This document shows positions 1,461 to 60,997 of a stretch of 64,000 bases of DNA, piece by piece (the stretch's first letter is position 1; each line of letters starts with the position of its first letter). The position numbers and the translations under genes were made by a program. The DNA is from Octopus vulgaris (lineage: Eukaryota), in NCBI GenBank assembly GCA_951406725.2, contig OX597815.1, forward strand, positions 186,062,001 to 186,126,000, in the 5' to 3' direction. The notes beneath the pieces were generated by a model. The model was not told the origin of the DNA, searched no databases, and saw nothing but the letters and a program-made list of their open reading frames with translations.

Positions 1461-1663
1461 ACTTACTCTTTTACTTGTTTCAGTCATTTGACTGCGGCCA
1501 TGCTGGAGCACCGCCTTTAGTCGAGCAAATCGACCCCAGGACTTATTCTTTGTAAGCCCAGTACTTATTCTATCGGTCGCATTTGCCGAACCGCTAACTT
1601 ACGGGGACGTAAACACACCAGCATCGGTTGTCAAACAATGCTAGGGGGACAAACACAGACACA

Positions 1664-1755
<92 letters not shown>
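1461..1755 (-). mobile_element. SINE family A (tRNA-derived, CORE-like), 3' half, split by LINE insertion
   Basis: Matches the 3' half of intact copies (e.g. 12148-12552) and ends in the internal (CA)n(TA)n tract. Confidence 0.9.
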
Positions 1756-1758
<3 letters not shown>

Positions 1759-1843
1759 CTTAGAATAACTTAGAAAGGTTTTTGGTCAGTATTGGCCCAG
1801 GCCATGTCTAACTTAATAGCACCACCTGGCGAAGTCTTTCAGT

Positions 1844-4800
1844 TCAGGATTTGGGCACCAAGGCCCATTCGAGCAGAGAGTTATTGTTTGCGAAGACATA
1901 TCCGGGTGTGGGTGGTTTGTCCGGTACTGTTTGAAGGAATTTGTCCAAAGACTTCTTGAATTTTGTGTGGTCAGTTTCTTTTTTGACGTGTCCTGGTGTA
2001 ATGTTGAAGAGAGCGGGTCCAATTGAGGTGAAATAGTTGTGCCGTATTGTCGTTATGTGATGCGATTTAGATTTTTGTTGTGGACGGATGGCACGTGGTC
2101 CAAGCCTTGGATGCATTTTGAAGGTGATGCCAACATCATTCGGACAGTGCTGATGGAATATTTTCCACATCATACAGATAATGTAGCGTTCACGGCGTCG
2201 TTGGAGTGAATACAATTTCAGCTTCTCTAGTCTACCCCAGTAGTCAAGGTCTGACATGCCATCTATCTTTTTTGTGATTGACCTTTGGGGAGCTTCAATT
2301 CTCATAATATTTTGTTTTGTGTAGGGAGACCACAGTGGACAGCAGTATTCAAGGTGGGGTCGGGCAAAAGTGGAGAAGAGAAGGATAATAGCGTGGGAAT
2401 CTCTCGACTGGAAGGTTCTGAGAATCCAGGAACACATTCTGCGGGCCATGTCAACTTTGCTGCTTATATGTGTAGCCCAGCTTATGTTGTTGTCCACTGT
2501 TACTCCCAGGTCTCTGATGTTGTTGGATGCCATGAGAATTTCTCCAGAAGGAAGAGAGTATGGGAGTTTCAGAGCGTCCTCCCTTCCAAAGTGGATCAGT
2601 TCGAATTTGTCTTCATTTAGCAACATGTTATTCTTTTCCGCCCATTGGACAACAGCCAGTAGGTCTGACTGAAGGTTTATTCGGTCATCCACGCCATTGA
2701 TGACCTTCTGGAGCTTGGAATCATCAGCGAAGGTTCTGATGTTACTGTGTTTGATGGTGTCAGTAATATCATTTATGTAGATGATGAAGAGAAGTGGGCC
2801 CAACACAGTGCCTTGTGGGACACCACTGCTGACTTTGGCTGGGCTGGATTTGACTCCTTCGACTACAACATGTTGGGTTCTGTTAGACAGGAAGCACTTG
2901 ATCCATTGCAGCAGCTTTCCAGTGACACCAATATTGGACAGCTTTCTCAGAAGGATCTTATGATCAACCCTGTCAAAGGCCTTGCTGAAATCAAGGTAGA
3001 TGACATCAGTGTTGGAACCTTCTCCCAAGGCTCTCAAAATGTCATCAAAATGATGCAGTAGCTGCGTCAGGCAATCTCTCCCATTACGGAATCCATGCTG
3101 GTTGGGGTTCAGCATATTATGACTCTCAAGGAAGTGAGTCATACGCGATCTCAGCACCCTCTCAAATACCTTGATGATATGAGAGGTGAGTGAGATTGGA
3201 CGGTAATTCACGGCAAGCGATTTGTTTCCTTTTTTGAAAACTGGGACAACAGACTGGGATAGAAGGTCTTCTGGTATATATCCAGCATCCAGTGAGTTCC
3301 GCCACAGATTGGCTAGAGGGGGTGCAAGTTGGTTTTGACACATCTTCAAGACACAAGCAGGGAACCTATCGGGACCTACTGCTGAATTATGCTTCATTTC
3401 CTTTATTGCTGCTAAGACATCAGGAGCGCCAAATGTTATGTCCGATAAAGTGTATTGGGGAGTAACATCACTGATACAGCCCAGATCAGTCATATCAGGA
3501 TTGCTGAAAACAGAGCAATATTGTTTCTGCAATATCTCTCCCATGGTTTTGGCATTGTCTTGAAGAGTACCATTTTCATCAATCAGAGGGCCAACAGTAG
3601 AACCAGTGACTCTGTGTTTTTTTGCAAATGAAAAGAACACTTTGGGATTGAGTTTGATCTTCTCAATGGCCCAGGCCTCTTCAGCTCTTCGCTGACTATT
3701 GATGATAGACATCATGTTGTTTTGGAGTTTATGTTTTTTAATCTCTAGCGACGAGATGGCAGTCAGGTTGGTGTGTTGCTGTTGACAGTATTTCAGCATG
3801 TTGATCTTTTTGTTGATTCTTTTAATTTTCCTTATGAGAGATTTTCTATTTCTAGGGATTCGACACTTAGATTTGTTTGCAGATCTTAATGGGGTGTGTC
3901 TTGCACATATGTTCGTGATGGTGTCTACAAGTGACTGCCAGGACTTTTTGATGTTAGTGGGTGTGTATGTGTGCGTGAAGGACCAATCGACTTGTGCAAG
4001 ATCATTATTGATCGCTTCCCAGTTTGCATTGTGGAAATCCATAGTGTCAAATGGATGAACAGGAGGGATGACATTTGTTTTGCATTTTGGCCAGTGAAAT
4101 CTCAGATCACAGAGAACCATGTCATGGTCGGAGAGTAGGGTTTTCTCCACTGCAACATTGTGGATAGTATCAGTGTGATTGCTGAAAATTAAGTCTAAGA
4201 CGTTTTTGTGACATCTCGTTGGTTCGAGTACCAGTTGGGACAAGAAGAAGTCATCCATGAAGTCAAGAAGCGATTCCACTGCCTCCCTGTCAGGGGTTGA
4301 GAGAGAAGAACCTGGCGGCAGACTGTTTGTAGACCAGTCAACCCCGGGAAGGTTGAAGTCTCCCATCATTAAAATGTTGTCAGGTTGACACTGCTGAATG
4401 AAACACTTTATGCTGTTGAGGCATTCCTTGAAGCATGGTAGGGGCGTTTGGGGTGGTCTGTAGAGCCCAACTACTGTTAAGTTGTTGGTTTGACTGAATA
4501 CAGCGACTGCTTCGCAGTATCCATTGGAAAATATGTTCATGGCTTCTGTTGAGAATGAATCATGGACATAAATGGCAGTCCCACCCTTTCTTCTGCCAGC
4601 ACGATCAGCACGAATGGTTTTGAAATTTTTGACTTTCACCTCGGCTTCCAAGTGGAGGTCACTAAGATGGGTTTCAGTGAGGACGAAGAAAGGGATGTGG
4701 TTTGGATGGGCCTCGACCCAGTCCTCCAGGAATCTTATCTTCCATTTTTGTGTATTGGTGGAAGGGCTGATGCCTTGGGCATTAAGCAGAAATGTTGAGG

Positions 4801-4951
4801 CGAGAGTGGATGGTTTTAATTGTTTTGGTGATTTGTTTATTTGATTGCTTTTTAATGGTATGTGCAGTGGGGTAATAGTGGTGGATGGTGGTGGGTGATA
4901 GCTCGGATGTTTTTTTCCAGTTCTTTTGCTAGATTCATTATAGCTAAAAAA
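1844..4951 (-). CDS. LINE ORF2: AP endonuclease + reverse transcriptase
   Basis: 935-aa track ORF has APE motifs (RADRAGRRKGGTAIY, YRPP, GDFN, LDLIF, SDHD) and RT motifs (NYRPISL, QHGFR, YLDFSKAFD, GVPQG, FADD). The frame stays open upstream to 4975 and includes the APE N-terminus (FLLNAQG...FVLTETHL) with no in-frame AUG there. End given at the putative slippery site. Confidence 0.93.
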   Translation of the reverse strand, partial: FFSYNESSKRTGKKHPSYHPPPSTTITPLHIPLKSNQINKSPKQLKPSTLASTFLLNAQGISPSTNTQKWKIRFLEDWVEAHPNHIPFFVLTETHLSDLHLEAEVKVKNFKTIRADRAGRRKGGTAIYVHDSFSTEAMNIFSNGYCEAVAVFSQTNNLTVVGLYRPPQTPLPCFKECLNSIKCFIQQCQPDNILMMGDFNLPGVDWSTNSLPPGSSLSTPDREAVESLLDFMDDFFLSQLVLEPTRCHKNVLDLIFSNHTDTIHNVAVEKTLLSDHDMVLCDLRFHWPKCKTNVIPPVHPFDTMDFHNANWEAINNDLAQVDWSFTHTYTPTNIKKSWQSLVDTITNICARHTPLRSANKSKCRIPRNRKSLIRKIKRINKKINMLKYCQQQHTNLTAISSLEIKKHKLQNNMMSIINSQRRAEEAWAIEKIKLNPKVFFSFAKKHRVTGSTVGPLIDENGTLQDNAKTMGEILQKQYCSVFSNPDMTDLGCISDVTPQYTLSDITFGAPDVLAAIKEMKHNSAVGPDRFPACVLKMCQNQLAPPLANLWRNSLDAGYIPEDLLSQSVVPVFKKGNKSLAVNYRPISLTSHIIKVFERVLRSRMTHFLESHNMLNPNQHGFRNGRDCLTQLLHHFDDILRALGEGSNTDVIYLDFSKAFDRVDHKILLRKLSNIGVTGKLLQWIKCFLSNRTQHVVVEGVKSSPAKVSSGVPQGTVLGPLLFIIYINDITDTIKHSNIRTFADDSKLQKVINGVDDRINLQSDLLAVVQWAEKNNMLLNEDKFELIHFGREDALKLPYSLPSGEILMASNNIRDLGVTVDNNISWATHISSKVDMARRMCSWILRTFQSRDSHAIILLFSTFARPHLEYCCPLWSPYTKQNIMRIEAPQRSITKKIDGMSDLDYWGRLEKLKLYSLQRRRERYIICMMWKIFHQHCPNDVGITFKMHPRLGPRAIRPQQKSKSHHITTIRHNYFTSIGPALFNITPGHVKKETDHTKFKKSLDKFLQTVPDKPPTPGYVFANNNSLLEWALVPKS

Positions 4952-5866
4952 GAGGAAGAAGAGGTGGTTTCCTGTCTAGGGAACCGCAGGTGACTGTGGC
5001 CGCGGCTATTTTTATGTGAGTGGTTATCTTTAAATGTCCGACGAGTCCCCGGGAGATGGGTAAAGGGGCAATCCCTGTGCAAACACAATCTGTCTCGCTG
5101 GGAATAGCGGCAGATTTGGGGATTCCTTGTTTGAGATATTGGTGGTTGTGGTGATGTTGTATTATGGTGGTTGCTGTTGTAGTTTGTGGGGATAGAGCGT
5201 TTTGTTCCAGGTAAATGGGTGAATTTGCAGTCTCTATCAGTGCACAGTCTATGGCGAAGAGAATATCGGCAAATGATGGGGTTTCGAGTGGGTGTGTAGG
5301 TGCGTGTGTGAGTTGTGAAAGGTGTAGATGATAGTTTGTTGAAGTTTTGGCGACCTTTGTGACCTGTAGGAGGTAAATTCCTTGAGATAGCATTAGTAGT
5401 AGTTGTAGTAGTAGTAGGTAGAAGAGATGTTGACAGTGGTAATGATTGAGGAGGTCGATTCCAAGACAAAGATGTTTGTCGATACATAGTGGGTGTAGTA
5501 CTAGTAGTAGTAAGCAGAGGAGATGGTGTTGACAATGATGATGATTGAGCTGCTGGGGCAGTGAAAGGAAGGGGTGGTGCTTCCTGCTGTGTGACCCTGA
5601 TGACTGGGGGGGTCAATCGTTTCGTTTAGCAAATCGGCCATTGTAGATGAATCAAGGAGTGGTTCAACCTGTTGTTGTTGCTGTATCTGTTGTTGTTGTT
5701 GCCGCTTAGTTTGTTGTTGTTGTTGTCGCTGAGGTTGTTGCTGCTGAAGTTGTTGTTGTTGCTGTAGCTGTTGTTGTTGTTGCCGCTGAGTTTGTTGTTG
5801 TTGAGGTTGTTGTTGTTGTTGTTGTTGTTGTTGTTGCGCCGTGATGCGTTCGAAGAGAAAACACAT
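4852..5866 (-). CDS. LINE ORF1: poly-Q / S-T-P-rich N-terminus and two CCCH-type zinc fingers (1-bp frameshift in C7 run at 5606-5612)
   Basis: CRYSLRHRLCTDRDCKFTH and CRYSQRDRLCLHRDCPFTH (C-x8-C-x4-C-x3-H) lie in ORF 4852..5616. Removing one C joins it to the upstream frame MCFLFERITA-polyQ-...MADLLNETIDP. Confidence 0.75.
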
Positions 5867-5903
5867 CTCAGTTTATCGAAGTGTTTATTTATTAATTTAA
5901 AAG

Positions 5904-6090
5904 CATATATATATATATACATATATACGACAGGCTTCTTTCAGTTTCCGTCAACCAAATCCACTCACGAGGCATTGGTCGGCCCGGGGCTATGGTAGAA
6001 GACACTTGCCCAAGGTGCCACGCAGTGGGACTGAACCCGGAACCATGTGGTTGGTTAGCAAGCTACTTACCACACAGCCACTCCTGCGCC
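5904..6090 (-). mobile_element. SINE family A, 5' half (tRNA-like head)
   Basis: ggcgcaggagtggctgtgtggtaag (A-box-like), ggttcagtccc (B-box-like), accttgggcaagtgtctt (CORE-like). Confidence 0.9.
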
Positions 6091-6386
6091 TATTACATAA
6101 ATTTTTATGTAATTTATATGTGTGGTTTTTCAGTGTAATTTGTAAGTTCTGAAATATTCTTAAGTCTGCCGGCGACCATATTTTCTTTATCTCTTTTTCT
6201 TTTTCTCGTTGTAATCTCAAGATATTTGTGTGTGTTTTTATCATTAATTTTCGCTTTTCCAAGAGTATCATGGCGCGTATTTGTTAGCCCAACGTTTTAG
6301 CAATTCTTTTCGGAAATATATGCACGCTCTGTAAAAAGAGTCTCTTGTTGGTTATCATCTCATCTGCAATGTACAACTAGAGGCCG

Positions 6387-9269: not shown

Positions 9270-10411
9270 TTTTAGTAGAGATCCTACAATCACTGGTACT
9301 GTAGTCGCCTTGAGATGCCACATTTTTTCAATTTCTATTAACAAGCCTTTATATTTACTGATCTTGTCAAATTCTTTCGCCGCTATATTGTGATCGCAAG
9401 GAATACTCATGTCAATTAATAAACGCACCTTTTTTCTCTGATCTTTTATAATGATATCCAGTTTATTAGCTTTTATAGTTTTCTATGTATGTTCGGGGAA
9501 TTCCCAGAGAATCGACACATTTTCTCCCTCAATAACACCTTATTATATGCATTCAGCTCAGACTTCAGGACTGCTCGAACTCTTCTGTAACATTCCTTCC
9601 TAACCTTCTCTTTCATGCCTGTATGCTGGATACCAGAGCCTTCATGTATTCCTAGGTATTTATAGGTTTGTTCCTTCTCAAGTTCCTTTTTTACTGTTTT
9701 GGCATCTAATGCGATCGAACTTGAATTTACCAATTTCCCTTTCTTAAAAGTAGCTTTGGCACACTTTTCAAGGCCAAACTCCATCCCGATATCATCACTG
9801 AATCATTTTCACAGTTGTAGTAGTCCTTCAAGCTCTTCATCATCTTTGCCATATAGTTTTAAATCATCCATATAAAATAGATGGCATATTTTCCTGTTGT
9901 CAATTTTGTAGCCATACCCTGTTCTATTCAGTTCATTTGAGAGTGGTATTAGTGCTATGCAGAAAATGAATGGTGAAAGTGAGTCACCTTGGAAAATGCC
10001 ACAGTTTATGCTAATATTGTTTGGGCGCAATAATCCATTAGAATGATATAATTGGAGTTTCGTGTTCCATAGTGAAATATTATACTTTAAAAAACCTGAA
10101 ATCACAGGAGAAATTTTGAAAATTTCCAGCGATTTCAGAATCCACGAATGTGGTATGCTGTCAAAGGCTTTTTTATAATCAATCCATGAAGAGCTGAGAT
10201 TTCTGCACGTGTTATGGCTGTTCTCGAGGATGATGCGATCAATTAGGAGCTGATCTTTGCATCCGTATGAACCTCGTCTGCATCCTTTTTGTTCAGTGGG
10301 GAAGAGGTTATTCTCTTCCATAAACATCTATGTTTTCTCCACTAGAATAGGTGTCAAAATCTTATAGGTAGTAGACAAACGTTATAGGCCGGTAGATTTT
10401 TGGGTCTTTGG

Positions 10412-10412
<1 letters not shown>
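9270..10412 (-). pseudogene. R4/Dong-type RLE retrotransposon, second subfamily, RT and endonuclease fragments with deletions
   Basis: YRPIT, EQKGCRRGSYGCKDQL, WIDYKKAFDSIPH, GIFQGDSLSP, HLFYMDDLKLY, FGLEKCAK, YKYLG; C-terminal IDMSIP...ISKYKGL. Confidence 0.85.
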
Positions 10413-10487
<75 letters not shown>

Positions 10488-10490
<3 letters not shown>

Positions 10491-11196
10491 TAGTTTTATT
10501 TTTATAACGTGCTTTCACTTCACTACCGAGCACAGCTCTGTGTGCCTTGGGTACGTGCTGTGATTTGTTGTGATGCTCTGATGGTTATTGTATGGAAAGT
10601 GTTCTGCGTAGAATGTGTGCAGTGCCTAGTAGTGCAATTTTCTGTATGTTATATGTGTTTGTAAGTCCTGGTGTTTTTGTTATGTATTTGTCTGAATATT
10701 TTTTTATCATGCCTAATGCACCTACTATGATAGGAATTGTTTCTGTTTTCAGATTCCGCATTCTAGTTACCTCTATTTCCAGGTCTTTGTATTTTGAGAG
10801 TTTCTCCATTTCTTTTAGAGACACGTTGTCATCAGCCGGTATTGATACATCAATTAGAAAGCATTTTTTTTCTTCATGATCTCTGACAACTATATCTGGT
10901 CTGTTGGCCTTAATTTCTCTATCTGTGTGTATCGGCATATCCCAGAGTATGGTTGCTTTCTCGTTTTCTGTGACCTTTTCTGGTGTGTGCCTATACCATC
11001 TTTTTTCTGTTGTTATTCCATAATGTTGGCATAGCTTCCAATGTATGTAGGTTCCAACTCTGTCATGTCTGTGAATATATTCCTTCTTAGCCAAGACTGG
11101 GCAGCTAGAGATAATATGATTTATTGTTTCTTGTCCATCTCCACATATTCTGCAGTTACTTGTAATATTTCTTTTCATTACATGTTTTTGGTAATT
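10488..11196 (-). mobile_element. R4/Dong-type element, 5'-truncated (zinc knuckle, PD-(D/E)xK endonuclease, 3' UTR), in (AAT)n
   Basis: CRICGDGQETINHIISSC, RHD, RPDIVV, IDVSIP, KLSKY; nearly identical to 44577-45280; (TTA)n on both sides. Confidence 0.9.
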
Positions 11197-11440
<244 letters not shown>

Positions 11441-11596
11441 TTTGCCTTTCATCCTTTTGGGGTCGATAAATGAAGTACTAGCTACTGGAGTCGATATAAT
11501 CAACTTGTCCACGCCCCGAAAAATGGCTGATTTGTGGCAAAATTTGAAACCATTATTATTAGTAGTAGTTGTAGTAGTAGTAGCAGCAGCAGCTGC

Positions 11597-56578: not shown

Positions 56579-57265
56579 AGACCAGATTACACACTGCTAT
56601 CTTAAGAAAGGAAATTCGTCACACTGAAGATTGTCGTTCACTGGATGGGTACGGCTAAATTGTCCTGAATATTTGGGTATAATCAGGGCTGGGCTTACTA
56701 CACAGAAGAATAGATTGGTCAGAAAGTTTAATCATAGTTCACAATTAGGGCTCGATCCGGGGTTGGAGAAAAACTATGAAGAACTCTCTGGTAGATTGCT
56801 TAAATTGCATCCGAATAATCTTCAAATGAAAACGCCTGCCTTCAAATGGGATATATAGATAATGTGATAATTAGTACAGTTTGGAAATAATGATATATTT
56901 GGCACGAGAAGTGTATATCACTAAATAATTCGCAGAAGCAAGGCGGCAGGAAAGAGAAAAATATAAAAGAGACGAGATAATCGAAAGCCTGTGTACTGAC
57001 TCACTTGACAGATCATTAAAGCTGCACTGCCAGTAAGCGACAATACATTTCATTTCTATACATCCTTTAATTCACCATGTATTAAATTTCAAGTGAACGT
57101 GGGCAGAAATATTAAGCCATAACTTTAGATTGTCAACTTAATGCAGCACCGTATAACGCCTACATATCCTGGTTTTGTTACTGCTCTCTTTTAAATTTTG
57201 GTTAATTTAAGAGAAAAGACATTTGAAAAATAAATTGTTAAAGATATTATAAATATATACATATA

Positions 57266-57444
57266 GGCGTAGGAGTGGGTGTGTGGTAAGTAGCTTGCTT
57301 ACCAACTACATGGTTCCGAGTTCAGTCCCACTGCGTAGCACCTTGGCCAAGTGTCTTTTACTATATCCTCGGGCCGACCAAAGCCTTCTGAGTGGATTTG
57401 ATAGACGGAAACTGAAAGAAGCCCGTCGTGTATATGTATGTATG

Positions 57445-57498
<54 letters not shown>

Positions 57499-57725
57499 TG
57501 TGTGTGAGTGTGTGTATGTTTGTGTGTCTGTGTTTGTCTCCCCAGCATCGCTTGACAACCGATGCTGAAGTGTTCATGTCCCCGTAACTTAGCAGTTCGG
57601 CAAAGGAAACCGATAGAATAAGTACTAGGCTTCCAAAGAATAAGTCCTGGGGTCGATTTGCTCGACTAAAGGCGGTGCTCTAGCATGGCCGCAGTCAAAT
57701 GACTGAAACAGGTAAAAGAGTAAAA
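57266..57725 (+). mobile_element. SINE family A, full length
   Basis: Matches consensus. Confidence 0.9.
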
Positions 57726-58185: not shown

Positions 58186-58339
58186 TCTTAAGTAACAAAA
58201 AGATGGATTTGGCATTAATCTTCATTTCGTACATCGGTCGTTTCTACCCATCCTGATACTGTCCTTTATGGGCGGGACTCCGTTCAATATCTTGCAATCT
58301 GGCTCTCATCAGCTACATCCATACTTAAAGTTGTGCCTC

Positions 58340-60997
58340 GCTAAAGATCAACACATAAGTGTACTTCTTATGGGAGACTTCAATCTGCCCAATGTCAGAT
58401 GACCCGAGAGCCTTTCTCTCCCAGGAATGACTAGATGTGAACGAGGACAGGCGAGGTCCCTCCTGAACCTCATCAACACCCTGTACATGGAGCAGGTAAT
58501 ACTCCAACCAACCAGGGCAGGTAACACACTGGATCTCTGCTTCACAAATGACAATGATCTCATCCATAATGTGAAAGTGACACCGACACTACTCTCGGAT
58601 CACAACATGATAGAGCTGACCATGTACGGGCCAAAAGAGAGCACGGACATGCAGCCTACAAGAAACCCCAGAATCTTTCCAGCTTGAACTACCATAAGGC
58701 AAACTGGAAACAAATTGAGAAAAAGATCCTCAAACAAAACTGGCCTAAATGTCTCTCCTCGCCAGACATCGACGTGAAACTTCAACAATTCATGTCTGTA
58801 ATGCAAGCCATATGCTACAAATGTGTCCCAGAGAGAAAGGCCACTGTACACAAGAACAAAATCCCCAGAGAGAGGAAAATTTTAATGAGACGGCGTACAA
58901 AATTTTCAAATCGCCTAAACAAACAGATTGAAAGCAGTGAAAAGTCCCGCCTAAAAATAAAACTGTTGGAAATCGAAAAATGTCTGCAACTCTCCCATGA
59001 AAAGGAAAGAGCAGACAAAGAAGCCTGGGCTATAGACAACATAAAATCTAACCCCAGAGCTTTCTACAGGTATGCCAAAGAAACAGCTACGGTGCACTGT
59101 AGAATAGGGCCACTCCTCGAAAAGGATGGCACACTTACAGGAAAACCAATGAGGGTAAGTGAAATACTGAATGAGCAATTCAAGAGTGTTTTCACTCCAC
59201 CCCTTGGGCATCTCCAAATCACCAATCCAACTGACTTCTTTACCACTGCAGATATAAAATCAGAGGCGGCGACGATAGATTACATCGATATAAAGGAAGA
59301 CGATGTAATCAAGGCTATAGATGAAATGAAAACAGACTCAGCTACTGGCCCCGATGGATTCCCGGCAATCCTCCTAAAAGCATGTAAGAGAGTCCTAGCA
59401 AGACCACTGCAGTTCCTCTTTCAGAGCTTCCTTGCAGCTGGCAAACTTCCAAGAAAACTGAAGGAAGGTAAAATATGCCCCATTCATAAAGGAGGTAGCA
59501 GAGCGGAAGCCAAGAACTATAGACCTATCTCTCTGACCTCACACATCAGCAAGGTCATGGAACGAATAGTCAGAAGGAAGCTGATCACCTTCCTTGAAGA
59601 GAATGACTTGCTGCCCGACACCCAACATGGTTTCCGACCAGGAGAAGCTGTTTAACTCAGCTCCTACAACACTATGACTGGGTGCTGAAACGGCTGCTCA
59701 ACCACTCAAATGTGGAAGTGATATATCTCGACTTTGCAAAGGCCTTTGATAAAGTCGATCATGGAATGATATGTCACAAACTGCGTGATCTCAACATAGT
59801 TGGAAAACTGGGAGAATGGCTTCATGACTTTCTGAAAGATAGAAGTCAGGTGGTAGTGGCCAATGGGGCCACTTCCATTAACACGCAAATAGTGAGCGGT
59901 GTTCCACAGGGCACTGTTCTGGGACCACTACTGTTCATAATGGCCCTCTCAGACATGCCCTCAGCCACGCAGAGAGCCACGATCACAAGTTATGCAGAAG
60001 ATACAAAAGTTTCACAGGCAATACAGAACCCTGAGGACACTAAACACCTGCAATGTGAGCTAGACAAAATATACAAGTGGGCCGAAAAGAATAGCATGCA
60101 GTTCAATGCTGAAAAGTTTCAAGCTCTATACTATCAGCATGCAAAACTAAATGCAATACCCAATCAATACACTGGACCCGGAGGAATAGCAATCCCAGAG
60201 GCACAATCAGTGCGTGACCTAGGTATTTACATGAGTGATGACGCGACCTTTCGTGTACATGTTGCTAAATTGGCAATGAAATGTAGACGACTGGCCGGAT
60301 GGATCCTCAGAACCTTTAGAACAAGAGAACAAGAAACCATGATGGTCCTCTGGAGGACACTTGTCCTAAGCCACTTTGACTACTGCTCTCAGTTATGGTC
60401 ACCATCCAGTGTCAAGTTGATCACAGAGCTCGAGGCGATCCAACGTAGCTACACGAAGAAGATAGCCTCTATGCAGAATGTAAGCTACTGGGAAAGACTC
60501 AAGAGATTAAAACTATATTCCCTGGAGCGTAGGCGGGAAAGATATGCCATAATATACATCTGGAAGATCCTGGAGGGAAGTGTCCTGAACTTTGGCATCG
60601 AGAGTTACGCAAATGCCAGAACTGGGCGCCACTGCGTGGTGCCTAGGACTCCAAACTTGCCATCAAGATGTAGGACAAGATTCTGTGATAGCCTGGGCTT
60701 CCGAGGCCCACAGCTCTTCAATATCCTCCCGAAGAACCTGAGAGACCTGCATGGGGTGGATGCAGATGTCTTTAAAATGAAGCTGGATCTCTTCCTGTCA
60801 GGTGTCCCAGATGAACCAACTTCACGGCAGGAGGGGCAGATGAGGGCAGCTGCATCGAACTCTCTCATGCACCAAATGGCAGTTGCTAGAAAGCTTTCGT
60901 GAAGTGAAACCAAGTAGCAACACCAAATGGCGGTGCCCCAGCATGGCCACAGCTCATAAGCTGAAACTAGAATCAATCAATCAATCAATCAATCAAT
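58340..60997 (+). mobile_element. CR1-group LINE, 5'-truncated, disabled ORF2 (APE+RT), (AATC)n tail
   Basis: MGDFNLP, TLDLCF, SDHN, NYRPISL, YLDFAKAFD, GVPQG; YADD changed to YAED; frameshifts near 58680 and 59645; clearly homologous to ORF 1844..4651. Confidence 0.92.

What the first reader, a model, noticed from the sequence alone, without database searches (positions are those of the whole stretch)
4852..4978. LINE ORF1/ORF2 junction built like a retroviral gag-pol -1 frameshift
Seen: on the minus strand the ORF2 frame opens after TAG at 4978-4976 and overlaps the last ~124 nt of ORF1 in the -1 frame. It has no AUG before or within the endonuclease N-terminus (FLLNAQG...LTETH). Inside the overlap, correctly phased in the ORF1 frame, are U_UUU_UUA (4951-4945) and A_AAA_AAC (4915-4909). 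Known: these are the HIV-1 gag-pol and MMTV gag-pro slippery heptamers, whereas L1 and SART1 make ORF2 by termination-reinitiation. Inference: this family makes an ORF1-ORF2 fusion protein by programmed -1 frameshifting. Caveat: only a weak downstream hairpin (gcta...tagc) is visible.
Basis: partly seen in the sequence, partly recalled or inferred. Interest (0 to 1): 0.8.

Follow-up and report, generated by a model that had tools for sequence, protein, structure and literature searches.

The report
Conserved frameshift site in CR1 LINEs
A jumping gene (a CR1-type LINE matching a published octopus family) and 17 distant relatives all keep a retrovirus-style slippery sequence at the same spot where their two genes overlap, so the second gene is likely made as a fusion when ribosomes slip back one base, although other copies of the octopus family also carry an ordinary start codon that this copy lacks.

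Summary
The overlap and both heptamers are at the stated places and in phase. The element is a CR1 LINE; its RT matches published family O.sinensis_33_LINE. Two corrections. The missing AUG is private: all 4 runs laid read ATG at 4861-4859, 7 nt before the ORF1 stop. A_AAA_AAC is not conserved. No junction indel was seen. The first heptamer is strongly conserved: all 26 related loci with this ORF1 end on the contig (17 families; the 11 compared by APE are 33-49% identical to the window, with saturated 4-fold sites) carry U_UUU_UUA, G_GAU_UUU or G_UUU_UUA in phase at the same Phe. Only 1 of 449 other Phe codons does so. ORF2's frame opens 0-72 nt upstream and stays open to the endonuclease; 12 of 17 relatives have no AUG ahead of it. 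No conserved stimulator was found. Best reading: low-level -1 frameshifting makes an ORF1-ORF2 fusion (0.72, untested). Rivals: restart at the family AUG, or a splice acceptor. Precedent: Dictyostelium TRE5-A. The scan noted similar CR1 junctions on other DNA (e1-9568866, e1-8041403).

The parts
1757..5904 (-). CR1-clade LINE copy, about 4.15 kb, inserted in the (TA)n stretch of a SINE; ends approximate
   Evidence: 68C; RT identical by eye over about 160 shown residues to O.sinensis_33_LINE, classed Jockey/CR1 with 69 RT members
4852..5641 (-). ORF1 (ATG 5641-5639, or possibly ATG 5866 with a poly-Gln leader). This copy has one extra base near 5606 and lacks 6 bases near 5303 relative to other copies, so its ORF1 is frameshifted
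   Evidence: indels seen in 4 of 4 runs (table 4)
5215..5271 (-). ORF1 C-x8-C-x4-C-x3-H finger 1; the last finger is invariant in the ORF1 alignment
5056..5112 (-). ORF1 C-x8-C-x4-C-x3-H finger 2 (near-duplicate of finger 1)
4976..4978 (-). Last stop (TAG) in the ORF2 frame, 24 nt before the heptamer
4945..4951 (-). U_UUU_UUA heptamer in ORF1 phase (codons Phe-Leu): the predicted -1 shift site; homologous to the heptamers of 17 related families
4909..4915 (-). A_AAA_AAC heptamer in ORF1 phase; not conserved, judged incidental
4855..4944 (-). ORF1-only tail (likely helix MNLAKELEKNIRAI, then Pro/His-rich), overlapped by the open -1 frame (linker of the predicted fusion)
   Evidence: helix is inferred from the sequence pattern
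4859..4861 (-). ORF2-frame codon 39: ATA in this copy, ATG in other copies; 7 nt before the ORF1 stop and 24 codons before the endonuclease LLN
4852..4854 (-). ORF1 stop TAA
1844..4975 (-). ORF2 frame, 1043 codons: APE endonuclease (FLLNAQG from 4792; Pfam PF03372, PF14529) and reverse transcriptase (PF00078, about 3229-2498)
5905..6093 (-). 5' half of the interrupted SINE
   Evidence: 89% identity to the intact SINE at about 57263-57451
1466..1755 (-). 3' half of the interrupted SINE
   Evidence: 91% identity to about 57431-57720

Best explanation
This is a CR1 LINE whose ORF1 and ORF2 overlap in the -1 frame, with a slippery heptamer conserved at one site across 18 families, and ORF2 is likely translated as an ORF1-ORF2 fusion when a small share of ribosomes slip back one base there (U_UUU_UUA, 4951-4945, in this family). 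Shown: the overlap, phase, conservation and open -1 frame. Inferred: most ribosomes would finish ORF1 (zinc fingers plus a C-terminal helix); a few would shift and make fingers + linker + endonuclease + RT, roughly 1,270 aa if ORF1 starts at 5641, with predicted trans-frame peptide ..SSF(L/F)SYNESSKR... With no conserved RNA stimulator the rate is predicted to be low, which would suit the small amount of ORF2 protein a LINE needs. The family's AUG at 4861 is likely either an incidental linker Met or an added second route.
For: Heptamer in ORF1 phase at the homologous Phe in 26 of 26 loci whose contig shows this ORF1 end (L001-L019, L023-L027, L031, L081; 91 loci fetched), forming 17 families. 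The Phe is invariant in an untrimmed ORF1 alignment of 10 sequences and shares one column in 12 of 12. Control: 1 of 449 other Phe codons in ORF1/ORF2 of 12 families lies in one of the three heptamers (DF 1 of 38, FL 0 of 47; 29 of 449 under a relaxed definition). APE 4-fold sites among those 12 are saturated (median identity 0.31, top 0.44). The codons covary as a shift site would: with G_GAU_UUU the codon after Phe is free (CTG, CTC, CTA, CGG, TAC), with x_UUU it is always TTA; the type changes several times on the APE tree, which has weakly supported nodes. Given its amino acids and codon use, the window's heptamer has P=0.033. The -1 frame stays open 30-174 codons to the ORF1 stop (P 0.006-0.13 per relative, 0.46 for the window), while its last upstream stop is only 0-72 nt before the heptamer in all 18. 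12 of 17 related families, including the 10 nearest on the tree, have no AUG between heptamer and first APE strand. No junction indel in 4 of 4 runs.
Against: Other copies of this family have an AUG 7 nt before the ORF1 stop, the geometry of coupled termination-reinitiation. 5 of 17 relatives (L019, L026, L027, L031, L081) also have an upstream AUG. No conserved downstream structure: mean z -0.3 to -0.5 over 12 families, only L017 clearly structured (z -3.9) and L001 weakly so; the window has none. The review PMC5009743 says high-level frameshifting generally needs a stimulator. The window's site is also a textbook splice acceptor. Families are related, so the products of P-values overstate significance. 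No translation data.
Confidence: 0.72

Rival explanations
1. In this octopus family ORF2 is made mainly by termination-reinitiation at the AUG at 4861-4859, 7 nt upstream of the ORF1 stop (SART1-like coupling); the heptamer is an inherited relic or a minor route.
For: ATG in all depth of 4 of 4 runs. It lies 24 codons before the APE motif, a plausible N-terminus. SART1 and L1 ORF2 depend on ORF1 translation (PMC2881922; PMC10275272). This family's overlap (124 nt) is shorter than most relatives'.
Against: The 10 nearest relatives lack such an AUG. An in-frame ATG within about 12 nt of the ORF1 stop is expected by chance in about 1.6 of 18 families; 2 are seen (this family at -7, L031 at +5), with L026 at -13. 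The heptamer survived a branch of about 1 substitution per site although it needs codons this element rarely uses (P=0.033). The AUG context is weak (C at -3 and +4; sequence).
Confidence: 0.15
2. The U-run marks a 3' splice acceptor: a spliced RNA joins a 5' exon to ORF2.
For: The window has 15 of 15 pyrimidines then TAG right at the site. In all 9 U_UUU_UUA families and L026 the first AG is a TAG in the same phase.
Against: The other 8 families have AAG, GAG or CAG in other phases or no AG within 24 nt, mostly with purine-rich upstream sequence. TAG arises from Leu-Glu/Asp/Ala codons. No joint or loose end at 4944 is listed in 3 DNA/unknown runs or 1 probable RNA run, and X17 record 9 spans the site; 41 loose ends were not shown and a donor beyond 5720 was not covered. 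Spliced RNA would be expected to leave internally deleted genomic copies (inference).
Confidence: 0.06
3. AUG-independent reinitiation, near-cognate start or IRES makes ORF2, and the heptamer only reflects a conserved Phe or another RNA signal (pause or protein-binding U-tract).
For: L1 ORF2 initiation is unconventional. ORF1 stops lie 26-71 nt before the APE motif in most close relatives. A few have NTG near the stop (L004 GTG overlapping TGA).
Against: Amino-acid constraint does not fix codons (1 of 449 control). It does not explain 60-170 codons of open -1 frame that begin at the heptamer. No shared near-cognate codon at the ORF1 stops.
Confidence: 0.05
4. The family has one fused frame and this copy carries a private indel or assembly error at the junction.
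For: This copy does have private indels elsewhere in ORF1. Two distant database proteins run from the FL helix into APE in one frame (P0014, P0017).
Against: No gap between 4852 and 4978 in 4 of 4 runs. 26 of 26 related loci have two frames. P0014 lacks parts of the RT core and looks like a spliced gene model (inference). Searches for longer fused proteins found none, which the tool rates as weak evidence.
Confidence: 0.01

Closest known systems
O.sinensis_33_LINE, Jockey superfamily, CR1 clade (Martelossi et al. 2023, PMC10294476, supplements 19 and 23)
   Same: RT identical by eye over the roughly 160 residues shown; classed CR1 with 69 RT members.
   Different: What I saw of the paper classifies by RT only; I saw nothing on the ORF1/ORF2 junction or translation.
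Dictyostelium TRE5-A and TRE3-A
   Same: [quoted passage not shown] 1 legend; overlap also in PMC5633606).
   Different: Amoebozoan, tRNA-gene targeted. I did not see the primary papers, so I do not know whether a heptamer was defined or tested. No sequence comparison was made here.
Retroviral gag-pol -1 frameshift (HIV-1 U_UUU_UUA) and G_GAU_UUU sites of RNA viruses (assignments recalled)
   Same: X_XXY_YYZ-type heptamer in phase, -1 overlap, RNA-binding protein fused to RT, upstream-protein tail replaced in the fusion.
   Different: No conserved stem-loop or pseudoknot 5-9 nt downstream; no protease; non-LTR element.
SART1 and L1 ORF2 (termination-reinitiation)
   Same: Bicistronic LINE; this family has an AUG close to the ORF1 stop.
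   Different: SART1 uses UAAUG plus a downstream structure. Here the overlap is long, and most relatives have no AUG.
HeT-A gag frameshift; Paramecium LINE groups 1-2
   Same: Recoding proposed in non-LTR elements (PMC5009743; PMC5405496).
   Different: HeT-A shifts within gag and has no RT; the Paramecium case is +1 and undecided between shift and reinitiation.

Membership tests
APE-type non-LTR retrotransposon | ORF2 with APE endonuclease followed by RT | tested here: met
   PF03372 E 8e-10, PF14529 E 8e-14, PF00078 E 2e-30
CR1 clade (Jockey superfamily) | RT groups with CR1 references | tested here: met
   By proxy: by-eye identity to O.sinensis_33_LINE, which the paper's tree places in CR1. 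No tree with references was built here.
CR1 clade (Jockey superfamily) | ORF1 of a described type (PHD, RRM, CCHC, esterase) | tested here: inconclusive
   Window ORF1 has two CCCH-like fingers and no Pfam hit above cut-off; 3 of 7 relatives have weak PHD hits below cut-off; 'CCCH' occurs 0 times in PMC4120745 main text
-1 programmed ribosomal frameshift site | Downstream ORF overlaps in the -1 frame and is open from the site | tested here: met
-1 programmed ribosomal frameshift site | In-phase X_XXY_YYZ-type heptamer conserved beyond protein constraint | tested here: met
   18 of 18 families; control 1 of 449 Phe codons
-1 programmed ribosomal frameshift site | Stimulatory stem-loop or pseudoknot 5-9 nt downstream | tested here: not met
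   window z -1.1 to +0.3; mean z -0.3 to -0.5 in 12 families, L017 the exception; crude pseudoknot search gave no shared fold
-1 programmed ribosomal frameshift site | [quoted passage not shown] | tested here: not met
   This family has ATG at 4861-4859; met in 12 of 17 relatives
-1 programmed ribosomal frameshift site | Measured frameshifting or trans-frame product | not testable with these tools
   needs a reporter, Ribo-seq or mass spectrometry
SART1-type stop-start coupling | AUG overlapping or within a few bases of the ORF1 stop | tested here: met
   7 nt upstream in 4 of 4 runs; not UAAUG; absent in the 10 nearest relatives
SART1-type stop-start coupling | RNA structure downstream of the stop | tested here: inconclusive
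   4908-4800, which covers only the first 52 nt after the stop, is unstructured (-0.6 kcal/mol); sequence further on was not folded

The most novel reading that the evidence does not exclude
Gag-pol-style -1 frameshifting is a standard, ancient way for animal CR1-group LINEs to make their polymerase, kept or evolved in several lineages with different heptamers (U_UUU_UUA / G_GAU_UUU in the CCCH-finger clade; A_AAA_AAC in a second lineage, 7 of 8 loci) and without a structural stimulator. The active endonuclease-RT would then be an ORF1-ORF2 fusion carrying its own zinc fingers, and annotated 'ORF2' N-termini of these LINEs would be wrong.
Probability: 0.5. Interest if true: 0.85.

Novelty: new variant of a known kind. 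Interest (0 to 1): 0.72.

Why it matters
How LINEs translate ORF2 is called an open and important question (PMC3894237), and the worked cases (L1, SART1) use reinitiation. A shift site conserved across 18 diverged CR1 families, with codon covariation and a second lineage using another heptamer, names an exact 7-nt target and a predicted peptide, so the question can be tested in one reporter assay. If true, LINEs share the retroviral way of setting the Gag:Pol ratio, their enzyme is an ORF1 fusion, and repeat annotators should not treat such AUG-less, out-of-frame ORF2s as dead. The octopus family, with both heptamer and AUG, would be a natural test of a switch between frameshifting and reinitiation.

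Tried and rejected
No whole genome is held for this window; the only other related copy in the window (58.3-60.8 kb, 35-40% aa identity) is 5'-truncated and has no junction. No RNA holder is on record; X17 is only guessed to be RNA, so nothing is claimed on expression. Folding found no stimulator. Searches for fused proteins with the window ORF1 and with the ORF1 alignment returned nothing, which is weak evidence; cluster members of P0014/P0017 could not be looked up. The viral scan gave 1 uninformative locus and the genome scan 10, of which L081 was usable. Loci left out of the 26: L020, L021, L022, L044, L051, L055 (match too near the contig start, site not on contig) and the remaining loci, which have other ORF1 types or no anchor. 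L027 dropped out of the tree through a wrong anchor. A_AAA_AAC was rejected as a second site (not conserved). Transcriptional slippage was set aside because G_GAU_UUU has only four U (inference). Proto2 and the 'unknown I clade' were considered and dropped. Ten literature searches listed no paper whose title or abstract start describes a conserved slippery site in CR1 LINEs; the one hit (PMC11835228) was not read. The library lacks most subscription papers and Repbase reports, so absence from print is not shown.

Full report
Observation. The window holds a 4.15-kb LINE on the minus strand, about 5904-1757, inserted into the (TA)n stretch of a SINE. The ORF2 frame runs 4975-1844 (1043 codons) with APE and RT domains. 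On the window alone this is weak: shuffles give one in-phase heptamer in 18% and two in 1.9%, equally long open -1 stretches occur elsewhere in ORF1, and nothing downstream folds better than shuffles.

Other copies of the family. No genome is held, so I laid contigs of 4 of the 24 listed runs, with four organism labels, on 4700-5720. The overlap has no indel in any run; single contigs span it in three runs and two overlapping contigs do so in X1. Position 4859 differs from the window in the whole depth of all four runs, which makes ORF2-frame codon 39 (4861-4859) ATG. That AUG lies 7 nt before the ORF1 stop and 24 codons before the endonuclease LLN. The window copy also has one extra base near 5606 and lacks 6 bases near 5303, so it is a slightly decayed copy (or carries assembly errors) with a frameshifted ORF1.

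Distant relatives changed that reading. A profile of the APE region fetched 80 metagenome, 10 genome and 1 viral locus. In 26 of the 91 the contig shows an ORF1 end of this type (CCCH-like fingers and/or the FL helix): L001-L019, L023-L027, L031, L081, forming 17 families. All 26 have ORF2 in the -1 frame and an in-phase heptamer at the Phe that begins the ORF1 tail. By family: U_UUU_UUA in the window, L003, L011, L012, L017, L024, L025, L027, L031; G_GAU_UUU in L001, L004, L007, L010, L018, L019, L026, L081; G_UUU_UUA in L009. The Phe is invariant in an untrimmed ORF1 alignment of 10. For the 12 families analysed in depth (APE identity to the window 33-49%), 4-fold sites are saturated (median 0.31; 22-60 sites for the top pairs), and only 1 of 449 other Phe codons sits in one of these heptamers. 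The codons covary: after G_GAU_UUU the next codon is free and need not be Leu, while the other type always uses TTA, a codon making up 2-18% of Leu codons in these elements. The type changes more than once on the tree, though several nodes are weak and long branches meet. The -1 frame's last stop is 0-72 nt before the heptamer in all 18; after it the frame is open for 30-174 codons to the ORF1 stop, with synonymous-resampling P of 0.006-0.13 for relatives and 0.46 for the window, whereas upstream ORF1 has a -1 stop about every 10-20 codons. The families are related, so I do not rely on the multiplied P-values.

Start codons. 12 of 17 related families have no AUG between heptamer and the first APE strand; the Met found in many of them lies just after the conserved Asn of LLNxxG (in L017 just before it), and starting there would cut off that strand (the importance of this Asn is recalled from APE enzymes). 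Five (L019, L026, L027, L031, L081) and the window's family have one or more upstream AUGs at scattered distances from the ORF1 stop. About 1.6 of 18 would have one close to the stop by chance; 2 do within 12 nt. The 10 relatives nearest the window on the tree have none, so the octopus AUG is a derived exception.

Mechanism. Shown: overlap, phase, conservation, open frame. Inferred: tandem slippage at U_UUU_UUA yields ..SSF(L/F)SYNESSKR.. and a fusion of fingers, linker, APE and RT; unshifted ribosomes add a short helix and stop. No conserved stimulator was found (mean z -0.3 to -0.5; L017 z -3.9; a crude pseudoknot search beat most shuffles in 4 of 12 but gave no shared fold), so I expect a low rate. 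That fits the small need for ORF2 protein argued in PMC3894237, but PMC5009743 notes that high-level shifting needs stimulators. Confidence 0.72 for this family, about 0.8 for the clade. Rivals: reinitiation at the family AUG (0.15); a splice acceptor (0.06), since the window site is a perfect pyrimidine tract plus TAG and 10 of 18 families have a same-phase TAG, but the other 8 do not and no joint at 4944 was listed; AUG-independent start (0.05); private indel (0.01).

Identity and prior knowledge. The RT is identical by eye, over the roughly 160 residues shown, to O.sinensis_33_LINE in supplement 23 of PMC10294476, which supplement 19 classes as Jockey/CR1 with 69 members; the host is therefore likely an octopus (inference). 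Papers seen: PMC10294476 (passages, section 9, searches in supplements 1-12, 19, 21, 23; the other supplements unseen); PMC3894237 (first third and passages); PMC5009743 (passages from the first 300,000 of 449,034 characters; its only non-LTR passage concerns the Drosophila telomeric elements HeT-A and TART); passages of PMC5911963, PMC5633606, PMC5405496, PMC10275272, PMC2881922, PMC4120745. Marschalek 1992, Kojima 2005 and Alisch 2006 were seen only as references. A review states that TRE5-A and TRE3-A need a -1 frameshift, so a frameshifting LINE is not a new kind. Ten searches listed no description of a conserved slippery site in CR1 LINEs, but Repbase reports and most subscription papers are outside the library. 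The HIV-1, MMTV and G_GAU_UUU assignments are recalled. The scan's own notes report similar junctions on other DNA (e1-7350016, e1-9568866, e1-8041403); e1-7350016 gave me the TRE5-A lead alongside my own recall. They are unchecked and not counted as support.

Wider reach. Among the more distant loci a second lineage has A_AAA_AAC at a homologous Lys-Asn in 7 of 8 loci with 69-129 open -1 codons, and four single loci, three with esterase ORF1s, show heptamers near the ORF1 end. This suggests, without proving, that -1 shifting is common in this group of LINEs.

Verdict. The feature is real. New variant of a known kind; interest 0.72.

Noticed in passing
L037, L040, L045, L046, L059, L069, L073 (exception L047): A second LINE lineage (PHD/RING-like ORF1, no CCCH fingers) has A_AAA_AAC in phase at a homologous Lys-Asn in 7 of 8 loci, followed by 69-129 codons of open -1 frame (P at most 0.013 each). 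Control: 3 of 21 other KN pairs. APE identity 40-82%. 4 of 7 have a Met 4 codons after the site.
   Followed up: partly
L054, L056, L068, L065: Single loci with an in-phase heptamer (GGATTTT, TTTTTTA, TTTAAAC, AAAAAAC) near the ORF1 end in a -1 overlap; ORF1 of the first three is a GDSL/SGNH esterase. No chance control was run.
   Followed up: no
window 1466-1755 and 5905-6093: The LINE sits inside the (TA)n stretch of a SINE and splits it in two; an intact SINE lies at about 57263-57720.
   Followed up: partly
window about 58325-60970 (+): 5'-truncated, frameshifted copy of another related LINE family (35-40% aa identity). Its 3' end shares 18 of 20 bases with the SINE's 3' part, a hint that the SINE borrows this LINE's tail.
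   Followed up: partly
window 4739-4800, loose ends in runs X1, X2, X6, X17: A sister family aligns only over the APE start. The 30 letters shown upstream of 4800 keep the ORF2 frame open, put a TAA in the ORF1 frame just before the APE, and begin with TG in a position where an ATG could stand; the deciding base is not shown (table 7).
   Followed up: no
window 9473-11448 (-): Broken fragments of a different non-LTR element with RT and a C-terminal CCHC/RPD motif, like R4/Dong (label recalled).
   Followed up: no
L081-L090: Eukaryote-type LINE sequences lie in contigs of prokaryote MAGs (e.g. L081 in a 'Mycoplasma sp.' MAG), most likely host contamination.
   Followed up: no
P0017, P0014: Two distant proteins run from the ORF1 FL helix into APE in a single frame; their DNA could not be fetched, so indel, gene-model artefact and true fusion are not told apart.
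   Followed up: partly
15-30 nt after the heptamer in L001-L018: A recurring ATGAAAGCAGAC-like stretch (MKAD) follows the site in many relatives but not in the window; whether it is conserved beyond its protein coding was not tested.
   Followed up: no
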